From a virus (lineage: Duplodnaviria; Heunggongvirae; Uroviricota; Caudoviricetes): a DNA stretch of 41,340 nucleotides. The notes beneath the pieces are model-generated. The model ran no database searches. It saw only the letters and a list, made by a program, of their open reading frames with translations, and was not told the origin of the DNA. The stretch lies in IMG/VR virus record IMGVR_UViG_2778261227_000005, positions 1-41,340 of that record; one strand, written 5' to 3'. The position numbers and the translations under genes were made by a program. Below, one piece after another: positions 1-8,529 of this stretch (position 1 is its first letter; every line of letters begins with the position of its first letter).

Positions 1-48
1 GAAAAACGAGTATTTTTAGTCATCCTGTTTACCTCTTTCTCAGGAAGT

Positions 49-2802
49 TTAGTCTCCAGGATTCCCGGGGCGGTTCAGAATGACTAGTTGTTGCCAATAA
101 ATTCGTAGGTCAGGAGCCCCGTTAGCTAAGCCTTTACCAAATTCGACGCGATACGGCATTCCATCCCGCAAAAAAAGATTAGGGCACAACTCATCAAGTC
201 CATGGGAAGATACTGCAAATTCGTGCCCCAACTTGAAAGCTTTGGCACAAAGTATTTTCCTGATTTCACTGAATTTATTAGTTCCTTGGTGCTCATAATC
301 AGCATCTAGAGCCCAAAAATCGCGCCTATTACTGAGTACATAAGCCATGATTGCCGAAACCAAGTCTTTAGGTTCTAATTCTCGTTCCAATGTCACAAGT
401 ATTTCCGGCAATGGTTCTACGTCTTCGTTATCTTTTCTTTTTGTATGGAAAAAGTAGATTGTTGAGCGGACAGCTTTCCAGCCTTCACCCCAAGGGCGAT
501 GGGCATGTAACTTACGAGCCGCATCAATTAATTTTGACCTTATTCCTCCATGACGCCAAATCCAGCGAAATTTATCAGCCAAGATCCGCCTGGCATCATC
601 TTCAAGCTCGGGCACTCCTGAGGTTCCTAATCTCACCAAAATATCGATGAAGGCGAATAGCCACGCAACAAGTTCATCGTAACTGGGTCGAAATCCATAA
701 TCTCTTGGCCTAGCACCAAACTCATTAATTCCGAATCCTGTCCACGGAGGTCCGCCGAGAGCAGTTTCAAGCATTTCGATCCCCATCCTTCTACGTTCGG
801 CCATACTTGAATCAATGCATTCATTCATGATCGCAACACGTTGTTCTAAAGAGGCATGGGTACCGGATAGATAAGGTTGGAAAAACCTCTTTATCTTATT
901 TCGAGCCGAATCATAATTATTGCTCGCGCTTTCCTGGTCTGCGATACGGATTAAGAGCTTAATGCATCGTTCAAAGTATTTCGATTCATATGCAAGTAAC
1001 TGCAACAATTTGATAATTGCTGTTCGTTGTGGGTTGTAGCGTGATTTAAAATGCTCAAAATTAGACGTAACAAGCGTTTCTTCAATCCTCTCAAGCAAAG
1101 TTCCTGGGGCAACTGGAGCGATATAATTTAGAATGCGTGTCGATACATCATCTAGGTCTATTATTTTTCCAAGCAGCCCTTCGGGCTGTAACCAAGCTTC
1201 AACAATCTCTTTAGCCACAGCATGGCTATGCAATAGTCCCAACCTGTGCGCGAACGACATCAATAATCGTTGCCGATCCGGAGCTTCAAAGGTCGTTCTA
1301 AGTTGATCAATCGGAATACTATTAAGTGCAGATGCTGCCAACTTGTTAGCAATGGCATGGGGAAGGATGGCTCTCCAGTGGGATCTTTTCTGAACAATGT
1401 GACGTTCCATCAACTTCGTAACAGCTTTGAATAACTGGATTTTGGGATACCCAGAGAGCACACCCAATATTTCCAGTTCATCGGTAGCTGCATCTGGACT
1501 AGATATCGAGAACGAATACACCAGTGACAATATTTCAGCTTGCTCCCGTAAATGGCCGTCGGGATGATTACGTTGTTCAAACAAGCGATTAAACAACTGC
1601 GCATCTGAAAGTAGGGCTAAACTCTCACCTTCTTCCACTCTTTCCGCTATAGCCAAAGCCACTCTTGCATTCCCATCTGCGAACTCTGCAATCCGACGGG
1701 CATTATTCTGACCAATAGAAGGGAAGCGACGGATAAGAAGTTGCTCTGCCACGTCTGGACCATCTGTCTCAATGTGGATGACCTCAGTTGTCTGTGGTTT
1801 GTCATCCCTAATGTCGTACTCGATCGTGATGAGACTTACTTCTTTCCCTGCGGCTGATACTTTGCTGGCAAGCGAAGCATGGAGTTCTGATGGGCAATTA
1901 TCAAGGATCATAATTGCTCGCCGGCCTTCAGCGAGCAGGTTATCAAGCATTGCTGTAGCCGACGGTACTGGCTCATAGCCAGTATCAACATAAATAGCTA
2001 CTGTTCGGTCAAGCGCATCTGTTCCAACAGTTTCATCAAAGAGCGCCTGAACGATTCGAGTCTTCCCAACACCAGACAATCCTGTAATACGAACAGCCTT
2101 GTTTGTCGAACGGATCAGTGCTCGCATTGGGTTAATTGCTTCATCAATTTTGAGTTTTTGCCCCTTTCCCGATGGTAAAGTAATGGTTACGCCTGGGGCT
2201 GAGATTAAAGTGTCTATAACACCTTGTGGTGGATTGCTCCAGGCTCCGTAGGGTTGCCAACCGGAATACCCTTGCCCAAGCTTTGCTTTTACCCACAGCA
2301 TGACTGATGGATGTTGGCGCAACCATTGGATGAGTTTGGAGCGGTCGTAGAAATCAAGATGAAGATAACTTTCGTTAGGATCATCTTTTACTGCATCCCT
2401 CATCGCTTTGAGACGATCCTTCTTTCCTGACGGCGAGCAATCATCACCCAGGCTGACAATGATGTAACTGCCTTGCTTTCTGGCTTGTTCAGAAATGATG
2501 GGAGAAAGTGCTTTGCCGGTGCCAATTTCCCTCTCAATTGCAGACTTAGGCATCTTATGTTTCTTTGCCTGAAAGACCGTATCAGGTCTTACAAGAAAGC
2601 CTGCTTTCAGTTGATCAATTGGAACCTGAACATGGATGTCAATTCCTCCGTCAGGGGCTGTAATTGAACCAGACCAATTTACACATGCTGGGCTATGGCC
2701 GTGCATTGCCACTTCAGCTTCTGCTAGCCGAGCGATCAGCTCTTCCAGCTGGATATCGGAGAGCCGAAGTAATTCGTCCTTTTCAATGTCAAAGATTGCC
2801 AC
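49..2802 (-). CDS. Mrr-like PD-(D/E)xK nuclease domain fused to P-loop NTPase with helical C-terminal region (917 aa); candidate STAND/Avs-like antiviral protein
   Basis: Uninterrupted 917-codon ORF. N-terminus has Mrr-type motifs (APDGGIDIHV ... VFQAKKHK), central Walker A GLSGVGKT and Walker B-like AIMILDNC, long C-terminal region with no motif I recognise. AT-richer than the prophage core. Family call from motif recall only. Confidence 0.7.
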   Translation of the reverse strand: MAIFDIEKDELLRLSDIQLEELIARLAEAEVAMHGHSPACVNWSGSITAPDGGIDIHVQVPIDQLKAGFLVRPDTVFQAKKHKMPKSAIEREIGTGKALSPIISEQARKQGSYIIVSLGDDCSPSGKKDRLKAMRDAVKDDPNESYLHLDFYDRSKLIQWLRQHPSVMLWVKAKLGQGYSGWQPYGAWSNPPQGVIDTLISAPGVTITLPSGKGQKLKIDEAINPMRALIRSTNKAVRITGLSGVGKTRIVQALFDETVGTDALDRTVAIYVDTGYEPVPSATAMLDNLLAEGRRAIMILDNCPSELHASLASKVSAAGKEVSLITIEYDIRDDKPQTTEVIHIETDGPDVAEQLLIRRFPSIGQNNARRIAEFADGNARVALAIAERVEEGESLALLSDAQLFNRLFEQRNHPDGHLREQAEILSLVYSFSISSPDAATDELEILGVLSGYPKIQLFKAVTKLMERHIVQKRSHWRAILPHAIANKLAASALNSIPIDQLRTTFEAPDRQRLLMSFAHRLGLLHSHAVAKEIVEAWLQPEGLLGKIIDLDDVSTRILNYIAPVAPGTLLERIEETLVTSNFEHFKSRYNPQRTAIIKLLQLLAYESKYFERCIKLLIRIADQESASNNYDSARNKIKRFFQPYLSGTHASLEQRVAIMNECIDSSMAERRRMGIEMLETALGGPPWTGFGINEFGARPRDYGFRPSYDELVAWLFAFIDILVRLGTSGVPELEDDARRILADKFRWIWRHGGIRSKLIDAARKLHAHRPWGEGWKAVRSTIYFFHTKRKDNEDVEPLPEILVTLERELEPKDLVSAIMAYVLSNRRDFWALDADYEHQGTNKFSEIRKILCAKAFKLGHEFAVSSHGLDELCPNLFLRDGMPYRVEFGKGLANGAPDLRIYWQQLVILNRPGNPGD

Positions 2803-3269
2803 TTTTAAACCCTATAAAAGATATTGCGACCATAGAAAAAGTTGCTCTTAGTCTAACCAATGAGGGAAGAGATGTCCGCTGAACATTTACAATTAAAACC
2901 ATCCACTTCAATTGGTTAAGATGTTCTGACTCAGAACTGTGATGTCGATCATACCTACTTTTACGTAGAGCTATCAGTATGTATGAAACTAAGGTCTAGT
3001 ATGAACAAAGGACAGGCTCATGCTTTATATGACTGTGAGGTTAACGAGCATTCTAGGTGCAAAAAGTTCCACTAACTTGATGATTTTTTATTCTTGAGGT
3101 GGTTTAGTGCGAGTTTAAAAATTTGGCTAATGTTTAAGATCAATAAATAAGTCCTGATTTTTTACTCTTTAGCAATTTTGTTAGCATTTTGTGTACATTA
3201 AAAATGAATTTTTAATATTAGTTTTTTTTAGATTTGGTTGTTTAAAATTTTATTGGGTGGAGTACCAAT

Positions 3270-6200
3270 ATGAAATGGATAAAAGCACTTAACCTTCAGC
3301 AATGGGCAGATTCTATTCCTGCAAAAGTTATTTTTCCAGCACTAATCGCTGATCTTATACGTGCAACGGCTAACAGTATTACTGAAATTAGATTTCCTAA
3401 TGGTGATAAGGGACAGGTTAGAGGTTATGACGGTGTACTTAAAGCCGAGGGGGTGGCCCCCTATGTTCCTGATGGCGACTCATTCTGGGAATTTGGTGTT
3501 AATGAAAAATTGCTTGATAAAGCTAACTTTGATTACGAAAAAAGAACACGCGAAGTTGCTCCAGAGATACGTCTAAAGACTACTTTTGTTTTCGCTTCAT
3601 TAAGAACATGGGATAATCCTAAGGTAAAGCTTGAAGACTGGCTACAAGAGAAACGCAATAGTGGTAAGTGGAAAGACATCAAATTAATTGATGGTTCTAT
3701 GCTTGAAGATTGGCTCGGTGTTTGCCCTGCTGTAGCTGCTTACTACGCTCGCTACCATCTTGAGCTAATGCCACAGGTTGGTGTTAGAAGCATTAAGGAG
3801 TTTTGGGATGAATTTTCCACTAAATTTAATCCCCCTTTAACTGAAGCAGTCTTGCTGGCGGGGAGAGAAAAGCAAAAAGAGCGTTTTCTGAATGAGTTAC
3901 GAGAAAATGGTCGAAAAATATCTTTAGCTGCAGATTCTCCGGATGAGGTTATTGCTTTTGCGATTGCAGCTATCAGAACCACTGAAGCGGAACTTCGACA
4001 TTCCTTTCAAAGTCGAGCACTAATTATTGATACGGATGATGCTGCAAGACAGCTTTCTGGAAAAAGAGGAATGATCTTCTTACCACGTGATCGAGCAAGA
4101 GCTTTAGCCGGTTTATTACAGCAAGCATCTATCACAGTAGTAAGTGCCGGAGCCGATGAAACACGAACTGATCACGAACTTCTGATCCGCCCAGATAGTA
4201 TATCTTTAGGTAAGGCTCTTGAATCTATGGGGTTTGATTCAGATAAAAGTTATCAAATAGCGCGGCAGTGTGGCCGAAGTTTGTCTGTTTTGGCTCGCCA
4301 GATATCAAGTAGCACGGCTGAATCACCTGAATGGAAAGACAGCCCTGAGTTGCTCCCTGCTTTATTAGCTGGTGCATGGAGTACATGTTCAGAGAAAGAT
4401 AAGTTAATTCTCAAGCAACTAGCTGGCTATACAGACTATTCTCAAGTTGAAAATCCATTAAGGCTATTAACAAAGCGCCGCGATTCTCCAATTGACCGAG
4501 TAGATGATATTTGGTCATTGCGTTCGTCGGTAGATGCTTTTGTACATTTAGGCTATTTGCTGGGTGAAGAACACCTGGAGCGTTTTGAGAAGGCCGTAAG
4601 AGAGGTTTTTTCCTATATTCCTGAACCACCAAAGGCCGAAGATCTGTTTGTACCTGACAATGGTATTAAAACGTCTTATAGCTCGTGGTTACGTAATGGA
4701 ATGACAACAGTTTTGCTACATATGGCAATATTACATGAACAGGCCGAATTCCGGGTTACTGGTATGACACCCCAAGATTTTGTTAACAAAATAGTTCAGA
4801 GTATTCCGGGACTTGCTAACGACCATCGACTATTTGTTAGTTTGCGAGATCAACTTCCGCTGCTGGCAGAAGCTGCCCCTGGCCCTTTCCTTGATGCCCT
4901 TGAGCAATTGCTTAAGGGCAATGGGGAAATGATTGCTCCAATATTCAATGAAGATAAAGGGCTGTTAACTCCTCGAAGTCATTATCATGGATTAAAATGG
5001 GCATTGGAAGCCTTGGCTTGGGAACAAACATATCTATTACGCGCTGCAATCTGTCTTGCAAAACTCGCTGTAATAGATCCCGGAGGAACTTACTCAGATC
5101 GCCCTCTTAATAGTTTAAGAACCATTTTTCTGGCATGGTCTCCTAATACATGGGCACCAGTAAAAGTTAGAAATGCAATTATAAAAAAAATTATCACTAT
5201 TGTTCCTAGTATTGGGTGGAGTTTGTTACAAAATCTCCTTCCTCGCTCCCATGATACCTCTGATCAAAACCAAAAAATGAAGTTCAGAGAGTCGGATAAA
5301 GATGTAGAAAAACTAACGTGGGGCGTTGTTTGGGAGGGGCAAATCTTTATTATCCAAGAAGCAATTAAACTTGCAGGTATACTCCCAACAAGATGGGAAA
5401 TCCTAATCTCTCATTTAAGCTCATTCCCTGAGAATGCAATAGATGAAACACTTTCTCATCTTGAACTTTGCCTTTCTCAACAAACTGAAGAGGATCAGTT
5501 CATCGTATGGGAGGCTTTGCGTCATGAGTATTCTCGCCATAAAAAATATTCAGATGCGAACTGGGCATTTAAATTTGAGTCTATGGAAAAAATAGCGAAA
5601 ATACTTGATAATTATAAACCAATTGACATGGTTAGAGCCAGTTTATGGATTTTCAATGATTGGGATTCTGATATTGAAGAGTCAATTGAAAATGCTGGCG
5701 GAATTTTTTCTTCTGTCGAAGAAATGCGAAGTGAAAAACTTAGGGAAATATACTTTACTTTAGGTTTGTCTGGGGTGAAAGACCTTTTTCAACAAGTTAA
5801 TAATGTTTTTATTGCAGCAAGGCATATATCAGCACTCTCGTTGGATGAAGAAAAATTAAATGATTTGTTTGTAATGCTTATTAACAACAAAAAAAATATT
5901 GATGAAGTTTGTGGGTTGTTAATGCAATATGGTGTTGAATGCTTTGGTGCTGAATGGCTTAATAAAATAAAAGTGTATTTTAAACAGTTTAAAATTACCC
6001 CTGATAGGGCTGGGAAAATCTTAGCATCGTTAAGAGACTCACAAGAGATATGGAGCATTATTGAAGGGTTTGAAGATAACATCAACGAAAAATATTGGTT
6101 GCAAAAACAACCCATTGCAATGATGGGTAAAACTTCGGATTTATTTGTTCTTATGGATAAATATATAGAAAGGGGCCGGGGTCTTGCTGCTATTATATCA

Positions 6201-7016
6201 GCAAATCAACGCCTTTCTGAGATTCCATCTACAACACTTTTATATCTTCTAGATATAGTCGTTAAAGAAATAAATAGCCAGGATATCCAATTTGATACAA
6301 TGCTATCGTACTATGTAAAAAAAGTTTTTGATGAACTCAAACAACGTAACGATGTTTCTGAAACAGATTTGGCATTTAAAGAAATGACCTACTTGCCTTG
6401 TTTTCCGGATAGCGATGAGCCACTTATCCTGCATCGTCTAATGATGAAAAAGCCAGAGGTTTTTATAGAAGCAATATGTATTGTATATCGTAGTGACGAA
6501 GATGAACAAACAGAACCATCGGAGTTGGAAGTTAAAAGAGCTACTTCTATATACAGATTACTTGAAAAATTACGAATACTACCAGGGCAGATAGACAATG
6601 AAATTGATCAAGATAAACTTGAAGATTGGTGTGAGAATGTACGCCATTTAGCAAAATTGCATCATCGCCAAGAAATCACTGATCATGTAATAGGAAAAAT
6701 TCTGGCACATGCCCCTAATAGCTCAGTAGATAATTCCTGGCCACATGAAGCAATTCGGCACATCATTGAAATATTATCTTCTGATGAGTTAGAGCAAGGT
6801 ATACAAATTGGTAGGTACAATAAAAGGGGGGTATTTGCTCGTATGCGTTACGAAGGTGGAAACCAAGAAAGGATATTAGCTGAGCAGTACCGAGAATGGG
6901 CAAATTCAATGCCCCACTGCGTCCGTACTTCTGCAATGCTATTTAGAATCGCTGACGAATGGGAATACTCAGCAAAAAACGCAGATATTCGAGCCGCAAA
7001 GGCTGATTTAAAATAG
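3270..7016 (+). CDS. Large hypothetical protein (1248 aa), no recognisable catalytic motif; candidate defence-island cargo
   Basis: Single 1248-codon ORF, strongly AT-rich, GGTGGAG RBS-like sequence upstream of ATG 3270. No Walker A (GxxxxGK[ST]) or helicase motif found on reading. Divergent from the 917-aa gene across a 467-bp AT-rich spacer. Confidence 0.8.
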   Translation: MKWIKALNLQQWADSIPAKVIFPALIADLIRATANSITEIRFPNGDKGQVRGYDGVLKAEGVAPYVPDGDSFWEFGVNEKLLDKANFDYEKRTREVAPEIRLKTTFVFASLRTWDNPKVKLEDWLQEKRNSGKWKDIKLIDGSMLEDWLGVCPAVAAYYARYHLELMPQVGVRSIKEFWDEFSTKFNPPLTEAVLLAGREKQKERFLNELRENGRKISLAADSPDEVIAFAIAAIRTTEAELRHSFQSRALIIDTDDAARQLSGKRGMIFLPRDRARALAGLLQQASITVVSAGADETRTDHELLIRPDSISLGKALESMGFDSDKSYQIARQCGRSLSVLARQISSSTAESPEWKDSPELLPALLAGAWSTCSEKDKLILKQLAGYTDYSQVENPLRLLTKRRDSPIDRVDDIWSLRSSVDAFVHLGYLLGEEHLERFEKAVREVFSYIPEPPKAEDLFVPDNGIKTSYSSWLRNGMTTVLLHMAILHEQAEFRVTGMTPQDFVNKIVQSIPGLANDHRLFVSLRDQLPLLAEAAPGPFLDALEQLLKGNGEMIAPIFNEDKGLLTPRSHYHGLKWALEALAWEQTYLLRAAICLAKLAVIDPGGTYSDRPLNSLRTIFLAWSPNTWAPVKVRNAIIKKIITIVPSIGWSLLQNLLPRSHDTSDQNQKMKFRESDKDVEKLTWGVVWEGQIFIIQEAIKLAGILPTRWEILISHLSSFPENAIDETLSHLELCLSQQTEEDQFIVWEALRHEYSRHKKYSDANWAFKFESMEKIAKILDNYKPIDMVRASLWIFNDWDSDIEESIENAGGIFSSVEEMRSEKLREIYFTLGLSGVKDLFQQVNNVFIAARHISALSLDEEKLNDLFVMLINNKKNIDEVCGLLMQYGVECFGAEWLNKIKVYFKQFKITPDRAGKILASLRDSQEIWSIIEGFEDNINEKYWLQKQPIAMMGKTSDLFVLMDKYIERGRGLAAIISANQRLSEIPSTTLLYLLDIVVKEINSQDIQFDTMLSYYVKKVFDELKQRNDVSETDLAFKEMTYLPCFPDSDEPLILHRLMMKKPEVFIEAICIVYRSDEDEQTEPSELEVKRATSIYRLLEKLRILPGQIDNEIDQDKLEDWCENVRHLAKLHHRQEITDHVIGKILAHAPNSSVDNSWPHEAIRHIIEILSSDELEQGIQIGRYNKRGVFARMRYEGGNQERILAEQYREWANSMPHCVRTSAMLFRIADEWEYSAKNADIRAAKADLK

Positions 7017-7050
7017 AAAGATTCAAAACCAAAATTAGAATAAATCATAA

Positions 7051-7074
7051 AAACCCTGCTTAAGAGCAGGGTTT
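7051..7074. terminator. Perfect 10-bp stem / 4-nt loop hairpin downstream of the 1248-aa gene; probable intrinsic terminator
   Basis: aaaccctgct-taag-agcagggttt is an exact inverted repeat, 35 nt after the stop at 7016; the following T-tract is weak (aacttcttt). Confidence 0.5.
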
Positions 7075-7154
7075 AACTTCTTTCAGCGTCATTTAAAATT
7101 GCAGACCTTCAGGTTAATCTACCCAAAAACAGAACGGGTTTTAGCTACGACATG

Positions 7155-7349
7155 TCATCCAACTAACCGCATTGCCTTTATCCCTCCTTCAATCATACTA
7201 CCGTGATCTGCAGCCATCACAAAATCAGCCCACCACTGCATCATAGGCCGTCGCTGCTCAAGATAATCACTACGGTTATACGCACGACGAACCTCATTCT
7301 TATCCACATGAGCAAGTGCAGCCTCAATAACATCAGGTGGAAATCCCTG
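7155..7349 (-). pseudogene. 3' fragment of a tyrosine integrase gene (C-terminal ~64 codons including the catalytic-Tyr region), truncated at the prophage boundary
   Basis: Minus-strand translation reads ...QGFPPDVIEAALAHVDKNEVRRAYNRSDYLEQRRPMMQWWADFVMAADHGSMIEGGIKAMRLVG*, matching the conserved C-terminal end of P4/CP4-57-type integrases (from memory). The frame has no start and is closed by a stop immediately upstream at 7353-7355. Confidence 0.6.
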
Positions 7350-7481
<132 letters not shown>

Positions 7482-7510: not shown

Positions 7511-7900
7511 TTACTCTTTTTTCTCCGTATCTACATCGGGTTCATCAGCAAATAGCTTGCCCTGCATCCGATCCAGTTCTTCTTTTCTTACCCGCTTAAC
7601 CACGCTGTAGACCCACTGAAGCGAAACACCAAATTTGCGGGCCAGTTCATGGTGGTTACGTCCGTTAAACTCCCTGAAGATTTCCCGGTCGCGCTGACTG
7701 ACCTTCCATACCATGCCCATCGGGAAATAAACGTTTTGCCCGCCCCAGACCTGCATCATGCGGTTCGCGACGGCCTGACCAATCTGGTCGGCAATTGCGG
7801 GCTCAATATCAATAATCTCGCGAACGGTTTCAGAGGTATGCTGTGCCAGTTCCACCAGGAGTTCCGGCCCTTTACTTCGAAACTGATTCAGGTCGCTCAT
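7511..7900 (-). CDS. mor: Mor/C-family transcriptional activator (middle/late operon regulator)
   Basis: 129 aa; pattern GGQNVYFP...RDREIFREFNGRNHHELARKFGVSLQWVYSVVKRVR matches the Mu Mor dimerisation and C-terminal HTH region as I recall it. Confidence 0.8.
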   Translation of the reverse strand: MSDLNQFRSKGPELLVELAQHTSETVREIIDIEPAIADQIGQAVANRMMQVWGGQNVYFPMGMVWKVSQRDREIFREFNGRNHHELARKFGVSLQWVYSVVKRVRKEELDRMQGKLFADEPDVDTEKKE

Positions 7901-8324
7901 GTTTTACTCCCGCAGCTCTGTGCTGCCACTTCTTCAGTTTCTCAATAACACTGCTTGCCTGTTCAGTATTGAGCCAGCGCAGGGCGCTGATGCCCGTTTC
8001 CCGCTTGATCCACCGCGCTAATGCATTTTCTGAACGGTCACGAACAATGCCGGCAGCAGCCATTTCAAGCCATAGCGCACGGATTTTCCTGGACTGCGGA
8101 TGGTTATCCAGCGGTAAACCGGAGCTGGCTTTTCTGGCAGGCTTAACGCGAAAGCCTTTCCTTTTCATGGATTCCAGCACGCAGTTTAGTTGTGTGGTAT
8201 CCATTCCTTTGGTTGAGGCTTTACCGGTCAGCCCCTGTAACATCTGGCGGTAGGTGTCTTCATCCATACCCAGTTCATTACGGGCAATATGAATGAGCTG
8301 GATAAGACGTTGTTTAGTCATCAT
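7872..8324 (-). CDS. gemA: Mu GemA/gp16-like protein (DUF1018)
   Basis: Translation MMTKQRLIQLIHIARNELGMDEDTYRQMLQ... is typical of Mu gp16/GemA; start placed at ATG 8324 with AAGGAG 5 nt upstream (the track ORF extends to 8363). Confidence 0.7.
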   Translation of the reverse strand: MMTKQRLIQLIHIARNELGMDEDTYRQMLQGLTGKASTKGMDTTQLNCVLESMKRKGFRVKPARKASSGLPLDNHPQSRKIRALWLEMAAAGIVRDRSENALARWIKRETGISALRWLNTEQASSVIEKLKKWQHRAAGVKHERPESVSK

Positions 8325-8529
8325 CGTTGCTCCTTTTACCTGCGCCACCGATATAATCGACATATAAAGGAAGCGCCACAGGCCAGCACAGGAACATCAC
8401 CGACCAGCTAATCCAGTAGCCGGCACCACTGTAACGTGAATAAAACCCTGAACGGCGGTGCAGTTCAGCAGTACACCAACCGACAAAACAATACCAGAAC
8501 AGGGCACATACAACAGATTCAGCCGTCAT
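8314..8529 (-). CDS. Small hydrophobic protein (~71 aa), putative membrane protein
   Basis: Internal Met of track ORF 8314..8685; hydrophobic segment CALFWYCFVGWC and WISWSVMFLCWPVALPLYV. Start choice uncertain. Confidence 0.4.
   Translation of the reverse strand: MTAESVVCALFWYCFVGWCTAELHRRSGFYSRYSGAGYWISWSVMFLCWPVALPLYVDYIGGAGKRSNDDD

What the first reader, a model, noticed from the sequence alone, without database searches (positions are those of the whole stretch)
3270..7016. 1248-aa AT-rich orphan protein with no recognisable catalytic motif, divergent from the Mrr-NTPase gene
A very large single ORF, clearly AT-richer than the rest of the window, with no Walker A, helicase or obvious nuclease signature on reading. 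Only the N-terminal ~170 aa (FPNGDKGQVRGYDGVLKAEG...PDGDSFWEFGVNEK) look like a compact globular, possibly nuclease-like domain. It shares a 467-bp AT-rich spacer with the 917-aa gene, so the two may be co-regulated or functionally linked. This is a plausible location for an undescribed single-protein or two-gene defence system.
Basis: inference. Interest (0 to 1): 0.7.

Follow-up and report, generated by a model that had tools for sequence, protein, structure and literature searches.

The report
P-loop-less paralogue of phage sensor Avs8
The 1248-aa gene is not an orphan: it belongs to a very large unannotated family that is a full-length relative of the known anti-phage capsid sensor Avs8A (its neighbour here) but has lost the ATP-binding motifs, so it is probably a phage sensor that works without ATP.

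Summary
The ORF is real: 3270-7016, 1248 aa, 39% GC, with a good ribosome-binding site and terminator. "Orphan" is wrong. It has at least 6,303 cluster representatives across many phyla, all about 1250 aa, and none is covered by Pfam, NCBIfam, PADLOC or PDB sequences.

The 917-aa neighbour is Avs8A (PD-lambda-4A), a characterised STAND nuclease that senses HK97-fold capsid proteins. In this window an IS element truncates it.

A profile of 58 family members matches a diverse Avs8A profile over almost the full length (99.5%, E=7e-23). Taken alone, the N-terminal Mrr-like nuclease domain gives E=3e-12 and the helical sensor gives E=1e-16.

Where every Avs8A sequence has Walker A GxSGxGKT, Walker B D and nuclease QxK, this family has ADSxDExx, R/K/L and ExG. 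D54 and E74 stay invariant.

The gene is usually solitary, often beside integrases or defence genes, and relatives swap the N-terminal module. It lies next to an Avs8A-type gene only in enterobacteria (head-to-head) and on Rhizobium plasmids (tandem).

Best reading: a stand-alone, nucleotide-independent Avs8-type defence sensor. Lee et al. (Nature 2026) report a "KpAvs8" lacking nucleotide-binding residues. It may belong to this family, but I could not check.

The parts
3256..3262 (+). Shine-Dalgarno-like GGTGGAG, 7 nt before the ATG
   Evidence: read directly from the sequence
3270..7016 (+). complete ORF of 1248 aa (WP_000871158.1 in RefSeq, 'hypothetical protein'): a P-loop-less Avs8A paralogue
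   Evidence: Family profile against a diverse Avs8A profile: 99.5%, E=6.8e-23, q7-1137 aligned to Avs8A 6-1158.
3270..3803 (+). aa 1-178: Mrr-like PD-(D/E)xK-type domain. D54 and E74 are invariant. The canonical Lys of QxK is replaced (position 76: G 46, S 10, K 2 of 58). K84 is present in 55 of 58.
   Evidence: hhalign against the Avs8A nuclease domain: 97.7%, E=2.5e-12. Column counts; alignment.
3822..4304 (+). aa 185-345: alpha/beta region at the position of the Avs8A STAND nucleotide-binding domain. ADSPDEVI (aa 221-228, nt 3930-3953) aligns with Walker A GLSGVGKT. FLPRD (aa 270-274) aligns with Walker B ILDN. An HTH-like ARxCGRSxxVLxR motif lies at aa 331-343.
   Evidence: Aligned only within the full-length profile alignment. 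This region alone is not significant (E=0.15). No Walker A in 108 members. Column counts.
4305..4850 (+). aa 346-527: helical region at the position of the Avs8A helical and winged-helix domains. The core shared by all architectures of the family starts at about aa 350.
   Evidence: Module-B proteins join the family profile at q351-400 (hhalign 94.6%, E=6.4e-8). Similarity to Avs8A for this region alone is not significant (E=0.06).
4851..6644 (+). aa 528-1125: helical-repeat sensor homologous to the Avs8A sensor. aa 501-650 are the most conserved; aa 700-1000 are the most variable.
   Evidence: hhalign 98.8%, E=1.2e-16. 92.9%, E=3.7e-7 even against a narrow Avs8A profile. Controls. Avs8A HMM hits in dozens of members. 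Conservation profile.
6645..7013 (+). aa 1126-1248: conserved C-terminal helical domain (W1157, G1197 and E1200 invariant). Function unknown.
   Evidence: No significant match to the Avs8A C-terminus (E=0.24).
7051..7074 (.). bidirectional terminator-like hairpin between the ORF and the integrase remnant
2803..3269 (.). 467-bp divergent intergenic region, 31.9% GC, shared with Avs8A. Only weak sigma-70-like matches, no more than chance.
49..2802 (-). Avs8A (PD-Lambda-4_A) truncated after codon ~908 of 1283. Context, not part of the protein under study.
   Evidence: PADLOC PDLC03991, E=0, profile positions 1-908 of 1283. Intact 1283-aa gene in E. coli O104:H4.

Best explanation
The ORF encodes a full-length paralogue of the antiviral STAND protein Avs8A (PD-lambda-4A).

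Shown:
- It keeps the Avs8A layout: an N-terminal Mrr-like nuclease-type domain, a central module of the same length as the NTPase module, and a long helical-repeat sensor.
- The whole family lacks the Walker A lysine/P-loop and the Walker B aspartate.
- The family lacks the Lys of the nuclease QxK motif, but keeps two invariant acidic residues (D54, E74).
- It is a huge, sporadically distributed family, mostly single-gene and carried on mobile elements. Relatives exchange the N-terminal module.

Inferred:
- It acts as a stand-alone, nucleotide-independent anti-phage pattern-recognition receptor.
- The C-terminal sensor binds a phage protein. By analogy with Avs8A this would be a monomeric structural protein such as an HK97-fold capsid protein, though not necessarily the same one.
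- Binding releases or assembles the N-terminal domains. These then damage DNA or otherwise arrest the cell, aborting the infection.
For: Homology:
- Family profile (58 sequences, 28-60% identical to the query) against a 17-sequence diverse Avs8A profile: probability 99.5%, E=6.8e-23, 1035 aligned columns, q7-1137 to Avs8A 6-1158. The reversed control gives E=0.57.
- Nuclease domain alone: E=2.5e-12. Sensor alone: E=1.2e-16.

Motif loss:
- All 17 Avs8A-family sequences keep G241/G244/G246/K247/[TS]248, D301 and D51/D55/Q78/K80.
- The 58 family members have A/G-D-S-x-D/E-E-A/V with no Lys, and R/K/L at the Walker B position.
- Nuclease positions: D54 58/58, E74 58/58, position 76 G46/S10/K2.

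Selection:
- Length is uniform at about 1250 aa and residues stay invariant down to 28% identity. There are 6,303 representatives.

Context:
- In E. coli the gene lies in the ssrA island between the integrase and Avs8.
- There is no conserved neighbour in 35 genome loci.
- Among 130 neighbouring genes within 3 kb in 30 loci, 8 match integrase families. CBASS, JetD, retron-type RT, OLD/Gabija-like, AbiE-like and HNH genes are scattered among them.
- On plasmids it sits next to Abi/SieB, AbiE and RT-SLATT genes.
- It is present on IMG/VR viral contigs and as a PHROG.

Module swapping, typical of Avs/NLR-like sensors:
- Module B, with a canonical D..QxK motif, is fused to the same core.
- A separate HetE-N gene (PF20701, E=1.5e-40) precedes a core-only protein in two independent loci.

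Published precedent:
- Avs8A binds HK97-fold capsid proteins and is a DNase (bioRxiv 10.1101/2025.07.02.662641).
- A KpAvs8 with naturally degenerate Walker motifs was modelled on its target, and the Avs7 sensor is reused by the NTPase-less Dsr1 (Lee et al., Nature 2026, PMC13581612).
Against: - There is no experimental datum for this protein.
- The central region alone shows no significant similarity to the Avs8A NTPase (E=0.15). "Degenerate NTPase fold" therefore rests on position and on the full-length alignment.
- No usable structure model was obtained. Single-sequence AF2 gave pLDDT 37 and 45.
- The canonical catalytic Lys of the nuclease is missing in 56 of 58 members. The N-terminal domain may not cleave DNA.
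- The sensor is only about 15% identical to that of Avs8A, so the trigger may differ.
- In ECOR07, transposon hits in Avs8A alone rescued cells from lambda gpE toxicity (same bioRxiv paper). If ECOR07 carries an intact, expressed copy of this gene, it does not kill in response to lambda gpE. I did not check whether it does.
- In E. coli genomes the gene is often IS-disrupted or truncated.
Confidence: 0.6

Rival explanations
1. It is one half of a paired receptor. The P-loop-less paralogue works with the canonical Avs8A next to it, as an extra sensor, a decoy or a brake on Avs8A. This would resemble head-to-head plant NLR pairs, in which the sensor partner does not need its P-loop.
For: - It lies head-to-head with Avs8A across a shared 467-bp AT-rich region in E. 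coli, Shigella and Intestinirhabdus. In Klebsiella aerogenes the two genes carry consecutive locus tags.
- A second, independent adjacency exists on Rhizobium plasmids: an HTH-fused family member directly followed on the same strand by a 1281-aa Avs8A-family protein with an intact Walker A. The pair is kept between two plasmids although the proteins are only 66% and 54% identical.
- 3 of 25 family-bearing plasmids carry an Avs8A-type gene, always adjacent. Across the whole collection 45 of 72,556 plasmids carry one.
- The two proteins share homologous N-terminal and sensor domains, so mixed oligomers are conceivable.
Against: - Most family members are solitary. No Avs8A-type gene lies within 10 kb in 31 of 33 non-enterobacterial genome loci, on 22 of 25 plasmids, or on 10 of 10 viral contigs.
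- Avs8A alone confers lambda defence, binds capsid protein and cleaves DNA in vitro (bioRxiv 10.1101/2025.07.02.662641).
- All E. coli copies are >=99% identical, so they represent one island lineage and not repeated co-selection. The three Rhizobium plasmids are related to each other.
- In this window Avs8A is IS-truncated while the 1248-aa ORF is intact.
Confidence: 0.15
2. It is not an immune receptor but a regulator or maintenance (addiction-type) protein of mobile elements, acting through DNA binding.
For: - Many relatives carry an N-terminal XRE/HigA-type HTH (PF01381). RefSeq names them "helix-turn-helix transcriptional regulator", "HigA family addiction module antitoxin", "XRE family transcriptional regulator" or "addiction module".
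- An HTH-like motif lies at aa 331-343.
- It is often found beside integrases.
Against: - The names derive from a ~60-aa fused HTH that the E. coli protein lacks.
- A 1250-aa protein with an Avs8A-type nuclease domain and a 600-aa Avs8A-type sensor is not explained by a regulator role.
- HTH fusions are common on defence proteins.
Confidence: 0.1
3. The E. coli copy is a decaying, functionless relic of an Avs8 duplication.
For: - ATP-binding motifs and the nuclease Lys are lost.
- In E. coli only 125 of 204 carrier genomes cover >=80% of the gene. Many of those are split by IS3-family elements, and a 5'-truncated remnant recurs.
Against: - The motif losses are ancient and family-wide, not recent decay.
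- The replacement residues are themselves conserved: D222, S223, E226 in 54/58; D54 and E74 in 58/58.
- Length is uniform in thousands of clusters across phyla.
- The window copy is a full, uninterrupted ORF, identical in sequence to the copy found in more than 1,000 contigs.
Confidence: 0.05

Closest known systems
Avs8A / PD-lambda-4A (EcAvs8, WP_000963924.1; Vassallo et al. 2022; bioRxiv 10.1101/2025.07.02.662641; Lee et al., Nature 2026, PMC13581612)
   Same: - Full-length collinear homology (E=6.8e-23).
- Homologous Mrr-like N-terminal domain and helical sensor.
- Almost the same length (1248 vs 1283 aa).
- Same island, as the direct neighbour.
- Single large gene carried on mobile elements.
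   Different: - No Walker A or Walker B, where Avs8A needs ATP for nuclease activity in vitro.
- QxK of the nuclease is replaced by ExG.
- Not detected by the PADLOC PD-Lambda-4_A models.
- Pairwise BLASTP is barely above noise (E=0.017).
- The C-terminal 120 aa are unrelated.
- The trigger is unknown.
[quoted passage not shown]
   Same: - It is described exactly as this family looks: an Avs8-type protein with degenerate Walker A and B.
- Klebsiella carries an 83%-identical orthologue of the window protein next to its Avs8A.
   Different: Identity could not be tested. The accession is in Supplementary Table 6, which is truncated in the held copy. If KpAvs8 is a member, this family has already been cloned and assigned a capsid-protein trigger, and the finding becomes a new member of a known kind.
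Dsr1 and other NTPase-less proteins that reuse the Avs7 sensor (Lee et al. 2026)
   Same: An Avs-type sensor is used without a working STAND NTPase. The module-B and HetE-N/core-only relatives of this family lack the NTPase region altogether.
   Different: The sensor family differs (Avs8-type, not Avs7-type). The effector is nuclease-like, not SIR2. The E. coli protein retains a module at the NTPase position.
Plant paired NLRs (for example RGA4/RGA5, RRS1/RPS4; from general knowledge)
   Same: Head-to-head paralogous receptor genes, one of which does not depend on a P-loop.
   Different: There is no evidence of cooperation here. Most family members are solitary, and Avs8A works alone.

Membership tests
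Avs8 / PD-lambda-4 (antiviral STAND) | Sequence family membership as defined by the PADLOC PD-Lambda-4_A models | tested here: not met
   The 1248-aa protein hits no PADLOC family, while the neighbour hits PDLC03991 with E=0.
Avs8 / PD-lambda-4 (antiviral STAND) | Homologous C-terminal helical-repeat sensor | tested here: met
   hhalign of q528-1125 against Avs8A 557-1165: 98.8%, E=1.2e-16. Controls.
Avs8 / PD-lambda-4 (antiviral STAND) | N-terminal Mrr-like nuclease domain | tested here: met
   Domain homology 97.7%, E=2.5e-12.
Avs8 / PD-lambda-4 (antiviral STAND) | Catalytic D...QxK motif of the nuclease (invariant in 17 of 17 Avs8A-family sequences) | tested here: not met
   D54 and E74 are invariant, but the Lys position is G 46, S 10, K 2 of 58; G in the window protein.
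Avs8 / PD-lambda-4 (antiviral STAND) | STAND NTPase with Walker A GxxGxGK[ST] and a Walker B Asp | tested here: not met
   ADSPDEVI and FLPRD occupy the aligned positions. No Walker A in 108 family members, against 17 of 17 Avs8A-family sequences.
Avs8 / PD-lambda-4 (antiviral STAND) | Activated by HK97-fold major capsid protein; protects against phage | not testable with these tools
   Needs co-expression and plaque assays, or AF3 complex models.
STAND NTPase superfamily (fold level) | P-loop NTPase fold followed by helical and winged-helix domains between the effector and the sensor | tested here: inconclusive
   The segment has the same length (349 vs 366 aa) and is flanked by homologous domains. 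It aligns collinearly within the full-length alignment. The region alone gives E=0.15 and 0.06. Structure models were unusable.
PD-(D/E)xK nucleases | Acidic pair plus Lys in the beta2/beta3 motif | tested here: inconclusive
   The acidic pair is invariant and the canonical Lys is absent. K84 (55 of 58) could substitute, but that is inference only.
Two-gene system with Avs8A (paired receptor) | Conserved co-occurrence of the two families across lineages | tested here: not met
   Adjacent only in enterobacteria and on 3 related Rhizobium plasmids. Absent in 31 of 33 other genome loci, 22 of 25 plasmids and 10 of 10 viral contigs.

The most novel reading that the evidence does not exclude
The head-to-head pair is a bacterial counterpart of plant paired NLRs. 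A P-loop-less Avs8 paralogue and the ATP-dependent Avs8A form mixed assemblies. In these, the degenerate partner either adds a second phage trigger or keeps Avs8A in check. The thousands of solitary family members would then be derived, nucleotide-independent versions. The recurrence of a tandem pair on Rhizobium plasmids is the only support beyond the enterobacterial island.
Probability: 0.12. Interest if true: 0.85.

Novelty: new variant of a known kind. Interest (0 to 1): 0.55.

Why it matters
- STAND/NLR receptors are thought to need nucleotide binding to switch on. Here a family of more than 6,000 sequence clusters has kept the Avs8 effector and sensor but replaced the P-loop with a conserved acidic motif. 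Either activation does not need nucleotide, or these proteins act through a partner.
- The family is missing from Pfam, NCBIfam and PADLOC, so current defence-system annotation overlooks it, including in E. coli O104:H4.
- Its three architectures share one core: an Mrr-like domain with a degenerate NTPase, a canonical nuclease-like module B, and a separate HetE-N gene. This offers a natural experiment on how one sensor is coupled to different effectors.
- If KpAvs8 of Lee et al. 2026 belongs to this family, the experimental entry point already exists. The value of this work is then the definition and size of the family.

Tried and rejected
I did not try to get around the check.
- Single-sequence AF2 of aa 1-430 and aa 1001-1248 gave pLDDT 37 and 45. 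No fold search was run on them.

Searches that found nothing:
- Pfam, NCBIfam and PADLOC on the protein, on 31 relatives and on N-terminal pieces gave nothing beyond noise.
- PDB sequence searches with three profiles found nothing: the two family profiles (A1, A5) and the module-B profile (A7).
- Looking for family members that still have a Walker A found none in 108.
- The KpAvs8 accession could not be retrieved. The supplement is truncated, and motif strings are absent from the 656 seed NTPase domains.

Results later superseded:
- The first profile comparison used a narrow (68-99% identical) Avs8A alignment. It was inconclusive (9.8%, then 55% and 92.9% for the sensor only) and showed nothing in the N-terminal half. 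This was resolved only after collecting distant Avs8A homologues from plasmids.
- I first read E. coli locus L011 as "CBASS instead of Avs8". That was wrong: a 478-aa Avs8A remnant is still adjacent.

Ideas rejected:
- HEPN (RxxxxH) in the C-terminal domain: the Arg is not conserved.
- Toprim for the alpha/beta region: the motifs do not fit.
- Avs8B as the identity of this gene: Avs8B is the 248-aa gene downstream of Avs8A.


Full report
**Observation**

The window carries one uninterrupted ORF at 3270-7016 (+) of 1248 codons.
- A GGTGGAG ribosome-binding site lies 7 nt upstream of the ATG.
- A terminator-like hairpin follows at 7051-7074.
- At this composition the chance of 1248 stop-free codons is about 1e-39.
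- The ORF has 39.2% GC. The 467-bp spacer to the divergent gene has 31.9%. That gene has 45.6% and the rest of the window 54.3%.
- The protein has no Walker A motif.
- It matches nothing in Pfam, NCBIfam or PADLOC or in PDB sequences.

**Where the window comes from and what surrounds the gene**

The stretch 78-7355 is 100% identical to E. coli O104:H4 and many other E. coli genomes.
- In those genomes the gene (WP_000871158.1, "hypothetical protein") lies in the island integrated at ssrA (tmRNA). It sits between the island integrase and a 1283-aa gene.
- That neighbour matches PADLOC PD-Lambda-4_A with E=0. It is WP_000963924.1, the Avs8A studied experimentally.
- Avs8A is a STAND NTPase with an Mrr-type nuclease. 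It binds HK97-fold major capsid proteins, then cleaves DNA, and it suffices for lambda defence. The 248-aa Avs8B gene downstream of it is dispensable (bioRxiv 10.1101/2025.07.02.662641; Lee et al., Nature 2026, PMC13581612).
- In this window Avs8A is cut after codon ~908 by an IS629-like IS3-family element, whose end fills positions 1-77.
- The island integrase is cut at 7355 by a Mu-like prophage 97% identical to phage PhiKM.
- The 1248-aa ORF between these two insertions is intact.

**The family**

- A word-indexed search found hundreds of full-length relatives of 45-83% identity. All are 1247-1259 aa and all are unnamed. They come from Burkholderia, Cupriavidus, Polynucleobacter, Stenotrophomonas, Methylococcaceae and others.
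- An exhaustive phmmer search against 1.84 billion cluster representatives gave 6,303 proteins at E<=1e-3 and 2,697 at E<=1e-30.
- Genome loci add Cyanobium, Terriglobia, Planctomycetota, Verrucomicrobia and Myxococcales.
- Plasmids add Rhizobium, Shewanella, Arthrobacter and Adhaeribacter.
- A full-length PHROG of unknown function exists, and ten IMG/VR contigs carry a member.
- In a 58-sequence alignment reaching down to 28% identity, 17 columns are invariant, among them D54 and E74.
- Residues 501-650 and 1151-1200 are the most conserved, and 700-1000 the most variable.

**Relation to Avs8A**

The first hints were weak.
- Pairwise BLASTP gave only weak hits, but they were collinear (best E=0.017).
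- A tblastn hit of Avs8A fell inside a distant family member.
- A narrow Avs8A profile (68-99% identity) gave inconclusive results: 9.8%, 55% and then 92.9% (E=3.7e-7), for the sensor only.
- Reversed and block-shuffled controls were much lower.

I then collected distant Avs8A homologues from plasmids (20-55% identity: Phaeobacter, Vibrio, Bacillus, Burkholderia, Leptospira, Thalassobaculum, Nostoc, Haloarcula, Rhizobium).
- With this 17-sequence profile the comparison became decisive: probability 99.5%, E=6.8e-23, 1035 aligned columns, query 7-1137 on Avs8A 6-1158. The reversed control gave E=0.57.
- Taken separately, the N-terminal nuclease domain (aa 1-178) scores E=2.5e-12 and the sensor (aa 528-1125) E=1.2e-16.
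- The central 350 aa and the last 120 aa are not significant on their own.
- The central segment has the same length as the Avs8A NTPase, helical and winged-helix module (349 vs 366 aa) and lies between two homologous domains.
- In the full alignment, Walker A GLSGVGKT falls on ADSPDEVI (aa 221-228). Walker B ILDN falls on FLPR(D). The nuclease QxK falls on E74-F-G76.

| Position | Avs8A family (17 sequences) | This family (58 sequences) |
|---|---|---|
| Walker A | G, G, G, K and T/S invariant | A/G-D-S-x-D/E-E-A/V, never a Lys |
| Walker B | Asp invariant | R, K or L |
| Nuclease acidic residues | D51, D55 invariant | D54 58/58, E74 58/58 |
| Nuclease QxK Lys | Q78, K80 invariant | G 46, S 10, K 2 |

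None of 108 family members has a Walker A at this position. The protein is therefore a full-length, ancient, P-loop-less paralogue of its own neighbour.

**Context and architecture**

- Clustering all neighbours of 35 genome loci found no conserved partner. The only recurrent neighbour is an integrase.
- Among 130 neighbouring genes within 3 kb in 30 diverse loci, 8 match integrase families. Scattered among them are CBASS, JetD, a retron-type RT, OLD/Gabija-like ATPases, AbiE-like and HNH genes, next to plain housekeeping genes.
- Plasmid copies sit beside Abi and SieB genes, AbiEi/AbiEii, or RT-SLATT and Shedu fragments.

Relatives come in further architectures that share the core from about aa 350 onward.
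- Some have an XRE-type HTH added in front.
- Some have a different ~300-aa N-terminal module B with a canonical D..QxK motif. It is fused to the core in a Shewanella plasmid and six viral contigs, and present in two MAGs.
- Some are core-only proteins of 922-931 aa preceded by a 106-115-aa gene matching Pfam HetE-N (E=1.5e-40), in two independent loci.

Such effector swapping on a constant sensor is the pattern known from Avs and other NLR-like defence proteins.

**Link to Avs8A**

- In enterobacteria the two genes are always adjacent and head-to-head. This holds for E. coli, Shigella and Intestinirhabdus. In K. aerogenes the two genes carry consecutive locus tags.
- All E. coli copies are >=99% identical, so they represent one island lineage.
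- Outside enterobacteria, no Avs8A-type gene lies within 10 kb in 31 of 33 genome loci or in 10 viral contigs.
- Three related Rhizobium plasmids carry an HTH-fused family member directly followed, on the same strand, by a 1281-aa Avs8A-family protein with an intact Walker A. Between two of these plasmids the proteins are only 66% and 54% identical.
- That is 3 of 25 family-bearing plasmids. In the whole collection 45 of 72,556 plasmids carry an Avs8A-type gene.

A functional partnership in some lineages is therefore possible. It cannot be the general mode of action, and Avs8A demonstrably works alone.

**Mechanism**

Shown:
- homology of the effector and sensor domains to Avs8A
- loss of the nucleotide-binding motifs
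- strong purifying selection
- sporadic distribution linked to mobile elements

Inferred:
- The helical sensor binds a phage protein.
- This activates the N-terminal domain without nucleotide.
- The outcome is abortive infection.

The trigger may or may not be a capsid protein, because the sensors are only ~15% identical. Avs8A transposon mutants of ECOR07 survive lambda gpE. This argues against lambda gpE as a lethal trigger, if that strain expresses an intact copy, which I did not check. Whether the N-terminal domain still cleaves DNA without the canonical Lys is open. K84 (55 of 58) is a candidate substitute.

**Comparison with what is known**

The closest known entity is Avs8A itself. Membership in the narrow sense fails on three tested features: the PADLOC model, Walker A/B and the QxK Lys. 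It passes on two: the nuclease-domain homology and the sensor homology.

Lee et al. [quoted passage not shown] It was modelled bound to its target. Klebsiella has an 83%-identical orthologue of the window protein next to its Avs8A. I estimate roughly a two-in-three chance that KpAvs8 belongs to this family. Its accession is in a truncated table and could not be checked.

The same paper shows that the Avs7 sensor is reused by the NTPase-less Dsr1. That is a precedent for the module-B and core-only relatives found here.

**Verdict**

This is a real gene and not an orphan. It is a P-loop-less paralogue of the adjacent Avs8A and a member of a very large family that current annotation resources miss. 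It is most likely a stand-alone anti-phage receptor. I rate it a new variant of a known kind, possibly already sampled once in the literature.

**Limits**

There is no usable structure model, no experimental data, and the central domain is assigned by position only.

Noticed in passing
window 1-77 (and the Avs8A fragment 49-2802): The left end of an IS629/IS1203-like IS3-family element (orfA start MTKNTRF on the minus strand; identification from memory) interrupts Avs8A after codon ~908 of 1283. The known defence gene of this island is therefore probably dead in this strain.
   Followed up: partly
window 7356-41340: A Mu-like transposable prophage, 97% identical to Escherichia phage PhiKM over its early region (Mor 7511-7900, GemA 7872-8363, both minus strand). 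It is inserted into the ssrA-island integrase gene, of which only the 3' end 7155-7355 remains. Mor lies only ~150 nt from the junction, which is not the usual Mu end layout.
   Followed up: partly
E. coli complete genomes: 204 of 5,426 genomes carry at least part of the 1248-aa gene, but only 125 cover >=80% of it. Many of those are split by IS3-family insertions. A remnant covering only nt 1459-3747 of the gene recurs. Avs8A is present in 152 genomes.
   Followed up: partly
L061 4904-12931 and L062 4841-12801 (Rhizobium plasmids): Tandem same-strand pairs of an HTH-fused family member (1372 and 1354 aa) and a canonical Avs8A-family protein (1281 and 1279 aa, Walker A GASGLGKS). The gap between the two genes is ~60 nt. 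In L061 they are flanked on the same strand by a RHE_PE00001-family gene and a 415-aa hypothetical gene.
   Followed up: partly
L049 4570-7664 and L059 7534-10688: A 106-115-aa gene matching Pfam HetE-N (PF20701) lies directly upstream (5-nt gap in L049) of a core-only family member. I could not find what this domain does in the library searched.
   Followed up: partly
L050 4107-7670; L054-L058 and L060; L045 and L046: An alternative ~300-aa N-terminal module (SNPFSTGGGG..FE ... TDD ... Q-x-K) has no Pfam, PADLOC or PDB match. It is fused to the same core as an 1182-1187-aa protein. In the two MAG loci it appears as a separate ORF, possibly because of frameshifts.
   Followed up: partly
RefSeq and GenBank names of relatives: Fragments and relatives of this family are named "XRE family transcriptional regulator", "HigA family addiction module antitoxin" or "addiction module". 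These names appear to come from the fused HTH of some relatives and mislead for the HTH-less E. coli protein.
   Followed up: yes
window 2803-3269: The divergent intergenic region is very AT-rich (31.9% GC). A 2026 preprint reports that PD-lambda-4 is de-repressed in an hns mutant of ECOR34 (10.64898/2026.09.05.749240). The 1248-aa gene may be silenced the same way.
   Followed up: no
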